NCBI GenBank assembly: GCA_963977015.1
Contig: CAXBMO010000001.1
Span: 320,001-384,000 of the forward strand
DNA: 64,000 nt
Reading direction: 5' to 3'
Source of the DNA: an uncultured bacterium
Lineage (GTDB): Bacteria; Verrucomicrobiota; Verrucomicrobiia; Verrucomicrobiales; DEV007
The notes below the pieces were generated by a model. The model saw nothing but the letters and a program-made list of their open reading frames with translations. It was not told the DNA's origin and searched no databases. Numbering within the stretch: the first letter of the stretch is position 1; each line of letters begins with the position of its first letter. Both the position numbers and the translations under genes were made by a program. Positions 18,751-20,258 of this stretch are shown here, piece after piece.

Positions 18751-18871
18751 AGCGATAGGGGCGTTCAATCAGTTTCAGCAGCCGTCACACGGGTTTCAAC
18801 CGGTTTTCCATGCACAATTGTAAGAGAACAAGCTGGATGCTCATCGGACTCATGCCTAGAATCCCATCATC

Positions 18872-18985
18872 GTGGGAGACGTGAAGAGTTTCATCAGCTA
18901 TCGGCGGGACGACGCCATTGTCGTGGGCAATGTGGACCGCATCTACGAGCAACTCAGCACCCGGTTCGGTGGGGATAGCGTGGGC
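18872..18985 (+). pseudogene. Truncated TIR-domain (TIR_2) N-terminal fragment
   Basis: KSFISYRRDD...DRIYEQLSTRFGGDSV matches the FISYRRxD...RLYxxLxxxFGxxxVF start of bacterial TIR domains. Similarity stops before the REP-like repeat at 19021. Confidence 0.7.
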
Positions 18986-19020
18986 GTCGCCACGATTTCC
19001 CGGACCAGCACATTCGGTCT

Positions 19021-19111
19021 CCACCGGGGCTTGTCCCCGTGGAACCCCGATCAACAACAGAACCTTCCCCCCAATAAAAAGGACGCCACCTTCGGGCTTG
19101 CCCCGAAGGTG
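19021..19111. repeat. Left REP-like hairpin doublet
   Basis: ccaccggggcttgtccccgtgg (19021-19042) and caccttcgggcttgccccgaaggtg (19087-19111). Confidence 0.8.
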
Positions 19112-19113
19112 CG

Positions 19114-19938
19114 ATGACCCGACCTGAGCCTATGGCCAACCGCGAACCCATCTACACCGCGGAAAACTGTCGCTTTTCCCATCCGCTCAATTGGAGTCTG
19201 AGTGTATTTTGGCGGGAATCCTGTAATGACGACCATTGGTTACCCGATCTCGTAGAAGCCACCGAACCCGATGGCCTCCGGATCAAATCCCACCGGTTTA
19301 CGGAAACCGGGGCCAGCCAGTTTTGGGTTTCGTCCTCGCCCGAGGTCGCGCCAGTCACGATCGTTCAAAGGGTCAAAGGCAGACTCCAGCACCTGGTTCG
19401 GTCCGATCGTCCCAAGGCCCTCAAACGCAATTTCTCGCTGCATGGTTTCGGGAAGGTCAGCCGCGAGGTGGTTCAGAACTACGTCTCCGATCAACTCGGC
19501 CACCATCAAATGGCCGACCCGGGAGTCCAGAAGCGATTGCAAACCTATCAGATCTCTCATCCTGAGATCGACCTCGCTCAACCCCAACGAACCTCTCACG
19601 GATTGTTCTCGTATTCGCTGCACTTGGTGTTGGTGCACTAGGGGCGTACCAACACTATCAACGATGATGTTCTGAGGAAAGTGAGCCGGATGATCGAGCA
19701 GTCGTCCCAGGCCAAAGGATACTTGCTCGCTGAAGCGGGAATCCTTCCCGACCACGTTCATATCCTGGCTGGTTGTCCCTTCGCGCAATCGCCTCTGGAG
19801 GTGGCGCTGGGGTTTCTGAACAACCTTGCGTTCGCGCATGGGATGAAACCCGTCTTTCAGTTTGGCGGGTTTCTGGGAACGGTCGGCGAATACACGTTCA
19901 ACGCGGTTCAGGAAGGCGTCAGCGCTCAACCGGGGTGA
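19114..19938 (+). pseudogene. Two-domain Y1 (HUH) transposase with in-frame TAG at 19639-19641
   Basis: ORFs 19114-19641 and 19681-19938 share a frame separated by a single TAG. Domain 1 has VKGR and NYVSDQ; domain 2 has SH..YSLHLVLV, PDHVHIL and GTVGE. Confidence 0.85.
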
Positions 19939-20011
19939 ACCCGGTTGGGGCGAGAGATCTGGGGATCGGGTCTGTTGTTGATCTTGGTTCCACGGGGGCG
20001 AGCCCCTGTGG
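19927..20011. repeat. Right REP-like hairpin doublet (inverted orientation)
   Basis: caaccggggtgaacccggttg (19927-19947) and ccacgggggcgagcccctgtgg (19990-20011). Confidence 0.8.
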
Positions 20012-20258
20012 TGACCAGTTCGAAGACGGGACTAACAAAACCCCGCTTTGAATCGCGCTTTGGCATTTTCTCCGCGTGGGCGTGATCTCACCCACGTCCG
20101 GCAAATGAGCAAGTTTGGAGAATCTCGCCACCGAAAAGGAGTGCATGAAACGGATGGATGGGCGAAACGGGGCTTAAAGCTCCGAAACGCAAAGCCCGGG
20201 CGATCACGCCTGGGCAACGTCAGGCCGCTCTTGTTTTGGGGGCCGCAAGCGTGAATCG

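What the first reader, a model, noticed from the sequence alone, without database searches (positions are those of the whole stretch)
19114..19938. Single-chain pseudo-dimeric Y1/HUH transposase with complementary half-sites
Seen: reading through one TAG gives a 274-codon protein with two IS200-TnpA-like repeats. Repeat 1 keeps KG and the catalytic helix (VVQNYVSDQ, YxxxQ), but its HUH position reads ASQF. Repeat 2 keeps SH...H and PDHVHIL but ends (GTVGEYTFNAVQ) without a clear YxxxQ helix. Established: IS608/ISDra2 TnpA is a dimer whose active sites can combine the Tyr of one subunit with the HUH of the other. Inference: this fusion fixes the dimer into one chain with a single active site, suiting single-site nicking (REP-like propagation or a domesticated role) rather than two-ended excision. 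No tnpB is present. Best candidate here for an under-described system.
Basis: partly seen in the sequence, partly recalled or inferred. Interest (0 to 1): 0.8.

Follow-up and report, generated by a model that had tools for sequence, protein, structure and literature searches.

The report
Broken single-chain double-domain hairpin transposase gene
This is a recently broken copy of a gene family, common in planctomycetes and verrucomicrobia, whose protein fuses two IS200-type DNA-cutting domains that each keep only half of the catalytic centre, and it sits between DNA hairpins in a small mobile element.

Summary
Window 19114-19938 reads, through one TAG (19639-19641), as a 274-residue protein with two IS200/Y1-transposase domains. 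Same-genus genomes hold intact homologues. The family has 257 representative clusters at E<=1e-30.

AlphaFold gives two Y1 folds in one chain (pLDDT 92.5, pTM 0.89). Among 188 full-length members, domain 1 keeps YxxxQ (Y 183, Q 185) and none has His at both HUH-equivalent positions. Domain 2 keeps HUH (H 182, H 179) and none has a YxxxQ. The likeliest reading is one composite active site, a natural counterpart of the engineered "trans-only" IS608 TnpA heterodimer. I could not measure the Tyr-to-His distance, because model coordinates are not exposed.

The gene lies in a ~1.02-kb element bounded by two inverted pairs of hairpins. Thirty-nine of 42 related loci show the same flanking layout.

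Here the gene is dead. Both genomic copies carry the TAG inside a 238-nt identical tract, probably a gene conversion, and the genome has no suppressor tRNA.

I found no published description. Two earlier notes of this scan report the same architecture.

The parts
19011..20030 (+). Whole element, about 1.02 kb: outer hairpin, inner hairpin, gene, inner hairpin, outer hairpin
   Evidence: The second copy at G000:C8:157229-158257 (-) aligns over this span at 92% identity and diverges outside it. In same-genus genome G126 the two flanking genes lie 13 nt apart, against 1490 nt here.
19016..19071 (+). Left arm of the 56-nt inverted repeat. It holds the left outer hairpin (19021-19042, CCAC-bulge-GGGG / CCCCGTGG) and a conserved 3' tail to about 19064.
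   Evidence: Inverted repeat with 19961-20016, 82% complementary. The 26-nt core pattern occurs twice in the window against 0 expected. Hairpin fold -10.4 kcal/mol, z -1.7. Position.
19087..19111 (+). Left inner hairpin. The start codon (19114-19116) lies in its 3' tail, GCGATGAC.
   Evidence: Found by script. DNA fold -13.7 kcal/mol, z -6.4, 0 of 200 shuffles as good. The same unit sits before the G125 homologue L027.
19114..19638 (+). First 175 codons: domain 1, the linker, and the first strand of domain 2. Domain 1 has the Y1 fold. Its HUH position reads A67-S68-Q69 (19312-19320). Its catalytic-helix motif is Y123-V-S-D-Q127 (19480-19494).
   Evidence: Fold of the homologous domain. Conservation.
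19639..19641 (+). In-frame TAG just after the first beta-strand of domain 2 (LHLVLVH|TAG|GR). In relatives this column is variable: R 62, Q 28, D 28, A 28 of 188.
   Evidence: The same TAG is in the C8 copy. Aragorn finds no CUA-anticodon tRNA among 59 tRNAs. Independent run contigs cover the site with no other letter.
19642..19938 (+). Rest of domain 2. HUH is H214-V-H216 (19753-19761, inside DHVHIL at 19750-19767). FLNNLA follows, then GTVGEY260, with no YxxxQ helix. The stop TGA is at 19936-19938.
   Evidence: The structural match of the homologous domain to the whole of IS200/ISDra2/IS608 TnpA is Z 9.3-9.8.
19532..19769 (+). A 238-nt tract identical between the two genomic copies. It contains the TAG and is probably a gene-conversion tract.
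   Evidence: There are 61 differences in 825 aligned positions overall and none in this tract. The rough chance of such a run is about 7e-7. Run unitigs break at 19532 and 19769, as expected at the branch points of a shared repeat.
19927..19947 (-). Right inner hairpin, the inverted counterpart of the left inner one. The gene's stop codon lies in its loop, and the last codons (VSAQPG) are encoded by the repeat.
   Evidence: DNA fold of the minus strand -12.1 kcal/mol, z -4.0. Sequence. The same layout appears at the G125 homologue (L027).
19961..20016 (-). Right arm of the 56-nt inverted repeat. It holds the right outer hairpin (19990-20011) and its tail (about 19966-19989).
   Evidence: Minus-strand fold -10.5 kcal/mol, z -2.8.

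Best explanation
The locus is a roughly 1.02-kb hairpin-bounded element. Its single gene belongs to a family of about 265-aa proteins found across Planctomycetota and Verrucomicrobiota.

Shown here:
- The protein is two IS200-type Y1/HUH domains in one chain.
- Domain 1 has lost the HUH metal site and keeps the tyrosine helix (Y-x-x-x-Q).
- Domain 2 keeps the HUH and has lost the tyrosine helix.
- This asymmetry holds across the family.
- The gene is flanked by hairpins in inverted orientation.
- Both copies in this genome are broken by the same TAG.

Inferred:
- The domains pack like the two subunits of an IS200/IS605 TnpA dimer. The domain-1 helix delivers Tyr and Gln into the domain-2 HUH site, giving one composite 'trans' active site per molecule.
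- The enzyme binds the flanking hairpins as single-stranded DNA and nicks near the conserved tail, forming a 5'-phosphotyrosine link.
- Because no second site exists for the IS608-style trans-to-cis helix swap, it must rejoin at the same site, as proposed for monomeric TnpA-REP.
- This activity spreads hairpin-bounded DNA, producing the deletion derivatives and tandem hairpin arrays seen.

In this genome the gene is inactive. A TAG after the first strand of domain 2 is shared by both copies, most likely through a recent gene conversion.
For: Fold:
- AF2 of the intact homologue P0002 (73% identical) gives pLDDT 92.5 and pTM 0.89, with two beta-alpha-beta-beta-alpha-beta-alpha domains.
- Domain 2 (residues 147-262) aligns to whole TnpA chains. 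For 2xm3_A: Z 9.5, rmsd 1.8 A over 112 residues.
- Domain 1 folded alone matches 15 TnpA entries at Z 10.3-11.5, with the next match at 8.1.
- A PDB profile search hits 2f4f and 2ec2 at E 2.4e-12. Domain 2 aligns to chain residues 4-79 (HUH) and domain 1 to 70-128 (YxxxQ).

Residues, among 188 full-length members:
- Y115 is present in 183, Q119 in 185, H206 in 182 and H208 in 179. All four are present in 176.
- Both His at the domain-1 HUH-equivalent positions: 0 of 188.
- A YxxxQ in the domain-2 tail: 0 of 188.
- Three of the 5 members without Y115 have also lost H208.

Functional precedent (passages read, not tested here):
- An IS608 TnpA H64A/Y127F heterodimer with one trans site cleaves robustly but does no strand transfer (He 2013, PMC3597680).
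- Monomeric TnpA-REP is proposed to transfer strands at its single site (Messing 2012, PMC3479197).

DNA:
- A 56-nt inverted repeat flanks the gene.
- Four hairpins are present, and the start and stop codons lie inside the inner ones.
- 39 of 42 related loci with usable flanks have flanking inverted hairpin-plus-tail repeats at z>=5, often 2-3 units on each side.
- Stem sequences differ between loci while the CC...GG foot stays invariant.

Mobility:
- A second copy exists at 92% identity.
- Six copies of a 311-nt deletion derivative of a sister element occur in the genome.
- The flanking genes are adjacent in G126.

Inactivation:
- Both copies carry the TAG.
- No suppressor tRNA was found.
- dN/dS between the copies is 0.19 before the stop and 0.20 after it, so they diverged under constraint.
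- The window's protein matches the family consensus at 73 of 81 conserved columns, so the break is recent.
Against: - The distance between Y115/Q119 and H206/H208 was not measured, because the tools return no coordinates. The composite site rests on residue conservation and on analogy with IS608.
- Y252 (GEY) is conserved in 170 of 188 and Y8 in 173 of 188. Neither has an assigned role.
- Sequence similarity between the two domains is weak: hhalign probability 9.5%, E 0.0034, though collinear over 99 columns.
- The hairpins are few in this genome. A regex found 16 places, 13 of them of this family. This is not a high-copy REP system.
- The 100% stem pairing follows from how I picked the hairpins (perfect stems only), so it is not evidence in itself.
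- There is no biochemical evidence for any family member, and no cleavage site is mapped.
- The run contigs covering the TAG may come from the sample the genome was assembled from.
Confidence: 0.66

Rival explanations
1. The nucleophile, or a second nucleophile, is a different conserved tyrosine: Y252 in the domain-2 GEY motif (window Y260) or Y8 in the N-terminal PIYT motif (window Y14). The enzyme would then have one HUH centre served by two tyrosines, like Y2 or rolling-circle HUH enzymes, or would use the site in cis.
For: Y252 is present in 170 of 188 and Y8 in 173 of 188. E251 and G250 beside Y252 are also conserved. In the degenerate members that have lost H208, Y252 is lost too (P0155, P0185, P0203, P0222).
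Against: Ten of the 176 members with an intact Y115/Q119/HUH core lack Y252. Four of them have Phe and one has Trp, the pattern expected of a structural aromatic. By the domain-domain alignment, Y252 corresponds to domain-1 position 107, eight residues before the catalytic-helix tyrosine, and no Gln follows it. Y115/Q119 reproduce the canonical Y-x-x-x-Q that aligns to the Tyr helix of solved TnpAs.
Confidence: 0.12
2. The family is a domesticated, non-mobile hairpin-binding or nicking protein with a host function, comparable to RAYT. The element-like features would then be by-products.
For: In a sample of the window's phylum, 23 of the 26 other genomes with a match have a single copy, as reported for RAYTs (abstract of bioRxiv 10.1101/119735, seen in the listing). 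The genes sit between inverted hairpin repeats, as REPtrons do.
Against: This genome has two copies at 92% identity plus six deletion derivatives of a sister element. Same-genus genomes hold 1-2 full copies, one of them also a 35%-identity paralogue, plus fragments. The site is empty in G126. Both copies here are broken by the same TAG, which shows the gene is dispensable.
Confidence: 0.12
3. The TAG is read through or otherwise bypassed, so the window's gene still makes a working protein. Alternatively, the two parts work as separate polypeptides.
For: The TAG is kept in both copies. The post-stop part shows 6 synonymous against 4 non-synonymous differences, omega 0.20. All catalytic residues are intact.
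Against: No CUA-anticodon tRNA was found among 59 tRNAs. The TAG lies in a 238-nt tract identical between the copies, which explains its presence in both without selection. Intact relatives have ordinary sense codons at that column. The first start codon after the stop (GTG at 19681) would remove the first strand of domain 2.
Confidence: 0.06
4. There is no real two-domain protein. The reading frame is an accident of two decayed neighbouring tnpA genes, or an assembly artefact.
For: Each half of the window ORF scores below the Pfam cut-off on its own.
Against: There are 320 homologues at E<=1e-3. Nearly all of the 120 listed are 256-302 aa long. 257 representative clusters score E<=1e-30, most matching profile positions 1-263 in one stretch. 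In the phylum sample, 27 of 31 genomic places have no stop. The model is confident as a single chain.
Confidence: 0.01

Closest known systems
IS200/IS605-family TnpA (Y1 HUH transposases IS608, ISDra2, Sulfolobus IS200; PDB 2a6m, 2vjv, 2xm3, 2f4f, 2ec2)
   Same: Each domain has this fold. Both carry an HUH and a Y-x-x-x-Q on a C-terminal helix. Both have hairpin-forming element ends. The best sequence models are IS200 ones (NF033573 and PF01797).
   Different: Those enzymes are homodimers of 130-155-aa subunits with two hybrid active sites (He 2013 abstract). This protein is one chain of about 265 aa whose two halves each keep one half-site, so only one site is possible. The hairpins here are in inverted orientation and no tnpB is present.
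Engineered IS608 TnpA H64A / Y127F 'trans-only' heterodimer (He et al. 2013, PMC3597680)
   Same: One subunit lacks the HUH and the other lacks the Tyr, leaving one trans active site. This is the pattern that the family shows naturally.
   Different: It is a laboratory construct of two separate chains. It cleaves but cannot transfer strands (passages read). The natural family is conserved across two phyla and sits in elements that have spread, so it presumably completes a reaction by another route.
RAYT / TnpA-REP and REPtrons (E. coli TnpA-REP, PDB 4er8)
   Same: The gene sits between hairpin repeats in inverted orientation. It is mostly single-copy per genome. One active site per molecule. 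One source names family members 'REP element-mobilizing transposase RayT'.
   Different: TnpA-REP is a single-domain monomer (Messing 2012). NF047646 scores 13.7 bits against a cut-off of 80. 4er8 gives only Z 5.0. The Tyr motif here is YVxxQ, not the class-2 YIxxNP type listed by Quentin 2018. The hairpins are low-copy or in tandem arrays, not hundreds of dispersed REPs.
TIRYT / TIRtron (Di Nocera et al. 2013, PMC3733652)
   Same: A RAYT-like tyrosine transposase gene flanked by terminal inverted repeats, some of them self-complementary, with moderately abundant repeat families. That paper notes many such genes in R. baltica (passages read).
   Different: The passages I read describe proteins with HUH and Tyr both conserved and do not mention a two-domain protein. 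The paper's alignment (Additional file 5) is a supplement I could not open.
Class 3 TnpA-Y1 of Quentin et al. 2018 (PMC6006769)
   Same: Found mainly in Planctomycetes. It has a Y----Q type motif related to class 1 and is flanked by atypical secondary structures.
   Different: Its median length is 178 aa and its HUH reads NHVH, so it is single-domain (table text). That study discarded 'unexpectedly long proteins' as fusions or annotation errors.

Membership tests
IS200/IS605 TnpA (Pfam PF01797 Y1_Tnp) | Y1-transposase fold | tested here: met
   Domain 2: Z 9.3-9.8 to TnpA chains, for example 2xm3_A at rmsd 1.8 A over 112 residues. Domain 1 folded alone: Z 10.3-11.5 to 15 TnpA entries, with the next entry at 8.1. 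Both tests used the intact homologue P0002 and its family alignments.
IS200/IS605 TnpA (Pfam PF01797 Y1_Tnp) | Score over the curated Pfam cut-off (23 bits) | tested here: met
   All 44 aligned family members match. P0002 scores 43.2 bits, but through one stretch only (residues 160-221 to profile 6-67). The window's two ORF pieces alone score 14.3 and 22.4 bits, below the cut-off. The six-frame read-through of the window copy scores 31.5 bits.
IS200/IS605 TnpA (Pfam PF01797 Y1_Tnp) | HUH motif and catalytic Tyr both present in each Y1 domain | tested here: not met
   None of 188 has both His in domain 1, and none of 188 has a YxxxQ in the domain-2 tail. The full motif set exists only across the two domains, in 176 of 188.
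IS200/IS605 TnpA (Pfam PF01797 Y1_Tnp) | Homodimer with two hybrid (trans) active sites | not testable with these tools
   The sequence allows only one HUH-plus-Tyr site per chain. The oligomeric state is unknown.
IS200/IS605 insertion sequence | Subterminal hairpins on one strand at both ends, without terminal inverted repeats (feature recalled from reviews, not from a call) | tested here: not met
   The ends are 56-nt inverted repeats, 82% complementary. The same hairpin form is on the top strand at the left end and on the bottom strand at the right end.
RAYT / TnpA-REP (NCBIfam NF047646) | Score over the curated cut-off (80 bits) | tested here: not met
   13.7 bits, E 0.044, on the read-through protein.
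RAYT / REPtron | Gene flanked by hairpin (REP) units in inverted orientation | tested here: met
   In the window. In 39 of 42 related loci, z>=5 against 30 shuffles each.
RAYT / REPtron | High-copy REPs dispersed in the same genome (more than 100 per genome, per the abstract of Nunvar 2010 seen in the listing) | tested here: not met
   Own genome: 16 regex places, 13 of this family. Complete Schlesneria genome: 29 units in about 6 places, mostly tandem arrays.
RAYT / REPtron | Single-domain monomer with its own HUH and Tyr | tested here: not met
   Two domains with split motifs. 4er8 gives Z 5.0 only.
TIRtron / TIRYT (Di Nocera 2013) | RAYT-like tyrosine transposase gene bounded by terminal inverted repeats | tested here: met
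   The definition comes from passages read. That paper states that HUH and Tyr are conserved in all TIRYTs, which in this family is true only across domains.

The most novel reading that the evidence does not exclude
The family is a naturally 'trans-only' Y1 enzyme that cannot use the IS608 helix-swap. It would therefore move DNA by a different single-site chemistry: nick, hold the 5' end on Tyr, and rejoin to an incoming 3'-OH at the same site. The catalytically dead domain 1 would be retained as a second hairpin-reading module. This would explain three observations. The element ends carry two different hairpins, outer and inner. The gene's start and stop codons are built into the inner hairpins. 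Relatives grow tandem hairpin arrays. On this reading it is a distinct mechanistic class of single-strand transposition between IS200 and RAYT.
Probability: 0.3. Interest if true: 0.8.

Novelty: new variant of a known kind. Interest (0 to 1): 0.6.

Why it matters
IS200/IS605 transposition is explained by a dimer whose two tyrosine helices swap between two active sites. How the monomeric RAYT enzymes transfer strands is still open (Messing 2012 discussion).

This family is a conserved natural protein built like the dimer but left with one site only. It shows that one site is enough for a spreading element, and it offers a stable single-chain substrate for testing the cis/trans model.

It also matters for annotation. 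Databases see one partial Y1_Tnp match and call the protein 'transposase' or 'RayT', so the architecture goes unnoticed. One survey set aside over-long proteins as fusions or annotation errors.

For this genome the practical message is smaller. The gene is a recent pseudogene inside a small mobile element.

Tried and rejected
- Model geometry. No tool returns coordinates of the AF2 models, so the Tyr-to-His distance could not be measured. I did not use complex prediction, because halves of one chain tend to pass by likeness to solved dimers.
- Domain 1 against domain 2. hhalign gave only probability 9.5%, E 0.0034. The internal duplication therefore rests on the folds, not on sequence.
- Short-word blastn of the element ends against the genome found fewer repeats than the genome search did.
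- Expression. No RNA holder was listed among the sequencing runs, so nothing can be said about it.
- Precise insertion site. G126 has the flanking genes 13 nt apart, but the window's extra 1490 nt also holds sequence that is not the element, so no target sequence could be read. In G125 the two flanks lie on different contigs.
- Target duplications at the 311-nt derivatives: none seen by eye in the 5 copies aligned.
- Alternative genetic code: rejected. There is no CUA tRNA and relatives have sense codons at that column.
- Literature. Searches for pseudo-dimer, single-chain dimer, tandem HUH, two HUH domains, fused dimer and internal duplication, combined with HUH, IS200, RAYT or TnpAREP, found no description. 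Searches gave the background papers. The library lacks most subscription journals, and supplements were closed.
- Earlier notes of this scan: a look-up by place and one by sequence returned nothing. A look-up by words found related notes.
- Errors: a script error was fixed, and a search-term format error was fixed.
Full report
WHAT IS IN THE WINDOW

An ATG ORF runs from 19114 to a TAG at 19639-19641 (175 aa). The same frame stays open to TGA at 19936-19938. Reading the TAG as X gives 274 residues (P0001).

Pfam Y1_Tnp matches both pieces weakly and in complementary registers. The pre-stop residues 71-127 match the C-terminal half of the model (positions 56-121; E 0.047). The post-stop residues 1-52 match the N-terminal half (16-67; E 1.5e-4). 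Both are under the 23-bit cut-off.

NCBIfam IS200 scores the read-through at E 9.2e-13 in two stretches, and the better one (159-229) runs across the TAG. The neighbouring genes are DUF1501 and PSCyt2/PSD1 genes, and there is no tnpB.

IT IS A REAL PROTEIN FAMILY

The genome holds a second copy on contig C8 (92% nucleotide identity, same TAG).

Among 134 genomes of the same family-level group, 3 have a match, counting this one, and all are in the window's genus. G125 and G126 carry intact copies (72-77% identity, no stops). G126 also has a 35%-identity paralogue with the same architecture.

- With the intact homologue P0002 (266 aa), the 5.8-billion-protein search returned 320 proteins at E<=1e-3. 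Nearly all of the 120 listed are 256-302 aa long, all but one carry PF01797, and they are named 'REP element-mobilizing transposase RayT', 'transposase' or 'hypothetical protein'.
- A profile search of 1.84 billion representatives gave 1376 hits at E<=1e-3 and 257 at E<=1e-30. Most match profile positions 1-263 in one stretch.
- Record titles of 56 genomic loci name Pirellulaceae, Planctomycetaceae, Gemmataceae, Schlesneria, Kuenenia, Verrucomicrobiales (the closest), Puniceicoccaceae and one Nitrospinia MAG.
- In 401 genomes sampled from the window's own phylum, 27 have a match at E<=1e-10. Twenty-three of the 26 other genomes have a single match, and 27 of 31 places are free of stops.

TWO Y1 FOLDS WITH COMPLEMENTARY HALF-SITES

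AlphaFold2 on a 44-sequence alignment gives pLDDT 92.5 and pTM 0.89, with two beta-alpha-beta-beta-alpha-beta-alpha units (residues 19-122 and 155-258 of P0002).

- Domain 2 (147-262) superposes on whole IS200/ISDra2/IS608 TnpA chains at Z 9.3-9.8. For 2xm3_A the rmsd is 1.8 A over 112 residues.
- Domain 1 does not show in that list. I folded it alone from 39 genomic homologues (pLDDT 81). Its 15 best entries are all TnpA structures (Z 10.3-11.5, rmsd 2.2 A over 92-93 residues), and the next is at 8.1.
- A PDB profile search gives 2f4f and 2ec2 at E 2.4e-12. Domain 2 aligns to the HUH half and domain 1 to the YxxxQ half.
- Sequence similarity between the two domains is weak. It is collinear over 99 columns but with hhalign probability 9.5%.

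I aligned 188 full-length members of 250-300 aa: 114 (including the query P0002) and 74. Shorter and longer hits were left out. Counts use P0002 numbering, and the window residue is +8, or +6 for Y8.

| Residue | Present in (of 188) |
|---|---|
| Y115 | 183 |
| Q119 | 185 |
| H206 | 182 |
| H208 | 179 |
| All four together | 176 |
| Both His at domain-1 positions 59 and 61 | 0 |
| YxxxQ in the domain-2 tail | 0 |

- The domain-1 positions that align to the two histidines read V/T/I/A/L at 59 and Q at 61 (Q in 155 of 188).
- The domain-2 position that aligns to Y115 is a gap or a variable residue.
- Three of the 5 members without Y115 have also lost H208, which fits the two working together.

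THE OTHER TYROSINES

Y252 (GEY) is present in 170 of 188 and Y8 in 173 of 188. Ten of the 176 core-intact members lack Y252, four with Phe and one with Trp. It aligns eight residues before the catalytic-helix tyrosine and no Gln follows it. I read it as a structural aromatic, but this is not proven.

HOW IT PROBABLY WORKS

IS608 TnpA is a dimer with hybrid sites, each made of the HUH of one subunit and the Tyr helix of the other (abstract of He 2013).

He et al. built an H64A/Y127F heterodimer with one trans site. It cleaved robustly but could not transfer strands, because rejoining needs the helix to swing to its own HUH (passages read). This family has the same pattern fixed in one chain. 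That supports one composite site, and it also means the IS608 route to strand transfer is closed.

For monomeric TnpA-REP, Messing et al. proposed that a new 3'-OH enters the same site to resolve the phosphotyrosine link (passages read). I infer the same here.

The spatial step, Y115 lying beside H206/H208, could not be checked because the tools give no coordinates.

THE DNA AROUND THE GENE

- A 56-nt inverted repeat (19016-19071 and 19961-20016, 82% complementary) flanks the gene. Its core pattern occurs twice in the window against 0 expected.
- Each end holds two hairpins. The outer ones are at 19021-19042 and 19990-20011 and have one bulged base. The inner ones are at 19087-19111 and 19927-19947.
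- The start codon lies in the tail of the left inner hairpin. The stop codon lies in the loop of the right inner one, so the last codons are encoded by the repeat.
- Of the 56 related loci I used 43 with near-complete matches. One of these had too little flank. Of the remaining 42, 39 show flanking inverted hairpin-plus-tail repeats at z>=5 against shuffles. L030, L063 and L064 do not. Many have 2-3 units on each side.
- Stems differ between loci while the CC...GG foot is invariant. The 100% pairing follows from my choosing perfect stems, so it is not independent evidence.
- In a complete Schlesneria genome, 29 units lie in about six places, mostly as tandem arrays. Ten and three flank the gene, and arrays of 8 and 7 lie elsewhere.
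- In the window's own genome the hairpins are few: 16 regex places, 13 of this family.
- Six copies of a 311-nt element occur in the genome at 85-92% identity. Each consists of outer and inner hairpins of a sister element with almost no interior.
- In G126 the two genes that flank the window's element lie 13 nt apart.

The element has therefore moved and left deletion derivatives. Its layout is REPtron/TIRtron-like (Di Nocera 2013, passages read), while its protein is IS200-like by sequence and fold. NF047646 scores 13.7 bits against a cut-off of 80, and 4er8 gives Z 5.0.

THE TAG

- Aragorn finds 59 tRNAs and none has a CUA anticodon.
- The two copies differ at 61 of 825 positions, with dN/dS 0.19 before the stop and 0.20 after it (6 synonymous and 4 non-synonymous changes after it). 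They therefore diverged as working genes.
- A 238-nt tract (19532-19769) around the TAG is identical between the copies, with a rough chance of about 7e-7. This points to a recent gene conversion that copied the stop.
- Contigs of four metagenome runs cover the TAG with no other letter and break at 19532 and 19769, as a shared repeat would. These runs may be the assembly's own source.
- Apart from the stop, the window's protein matches the family consensus at 73 of 81 columns conserved at 70% or more.
- The gene is a recent pseudogene. The genome has 15 other Y1_Tnp matches, 8 of them canonical single-domain genes.

WHAT IS KNOWN

Quentin et al. 2018 describe a class 3 found mainly in Planctomycetes, but at 178 aa with NHVH. 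They also discarded over-long proteins as fusions or annotation errors (passages read).

My searches for pseudo-dimer, single-chain dimer, tandem or two HUH domains, fused dimer and internal duplication, combined with HUH, IS200, RAYT or TnpAREP, found no description. The library lacks most subscription journals and supplements were closed, so this absence is provisional.

Pfam reports a single partial match (residues 160-221 of P0002), which explains why the architecture has been overlooked.

Two earlier notes of this scan, on other genomes, describe the same two-domain design with hairpin repeats. They agree with this report but are not independent evidence.

VERDICT

The family is a new variant of a known kind: a Y1/HUH transposase recast as a single-chain pseudo-dimer with one site. 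The copy in this window is broken.

Noticed in passing
window 18869-18958 (ORF 18872-19117): About 30 codons of the 5' end of a TIR-domain gene sit just upstream of the element. The stretch is 91% identical to the start of a G126 gene that carries TIR_2 and the beginning of an FGE-sulfatase domain. The window copy breaks off after about 90 nt, so it is a gene fragment.
   Followed up: partly
G000:C8:29142-29452, C10:5913-6223, C1:557266-557564, C4:397670-397980, C6:339912-340214, C36:46391-46647 (all outside the window): Six copies (85-92% identical) of a 311-nt MITE-like element. It carries its own 17-nt terminal inverted repeat plus the outer and inner hairpins of a sister element, but no gene. 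No intact cognate gene was found in this genome.
   Followed up: partly
window 19114-19116 and 19936-19938: The gene's start codon lies in the tail of the left inner hairpin and its stop codon in the loop of the right inner hairpin. The C-terminal residues (VSAQPG) are therefore repeat-encoded and recur in the gene-less 311-nt elements.
   Followed up: partly
L052 genome (handle G134), C1:5349169-5350842, 5534377-5534915, 4217665-4218144: In a complete Schlesneria genome the cognate hairpin units form tandem arrays with a 72-75-nt period. Ten and three units flank the gene, and gene-less arrays of 8 and 7 units lie elsewhere.
   Followed up: partly
G000, 17 places, e.g. C31:433-762, C32:58275-58616, C7:187393-187737: The genome carries 8 canonical single-domain IS200-type tnpA genes, several at contig ends, and further RAYT-like Y1 genes. 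It is unusually rich in Y1 enzymes.
   Followed up: no
proteins P0155, P0203, P0222 (also P0185): A few family members have lost Y115, Q119, H208 and Y252 together. They look like catalytically dead derivatives of the two-domain protein.
   Followed up: no
window 18769-20258 against G126:C5:401313-401327: The DUF1501 and PSCyt2/PSD1 genes are 13 nt apart in G126 but 1490 nt apart here. Besides the 1.02-kb element, the insert holds about 240 nt and 228 nt of other sequence of unclear origin.
   Followed up: partly
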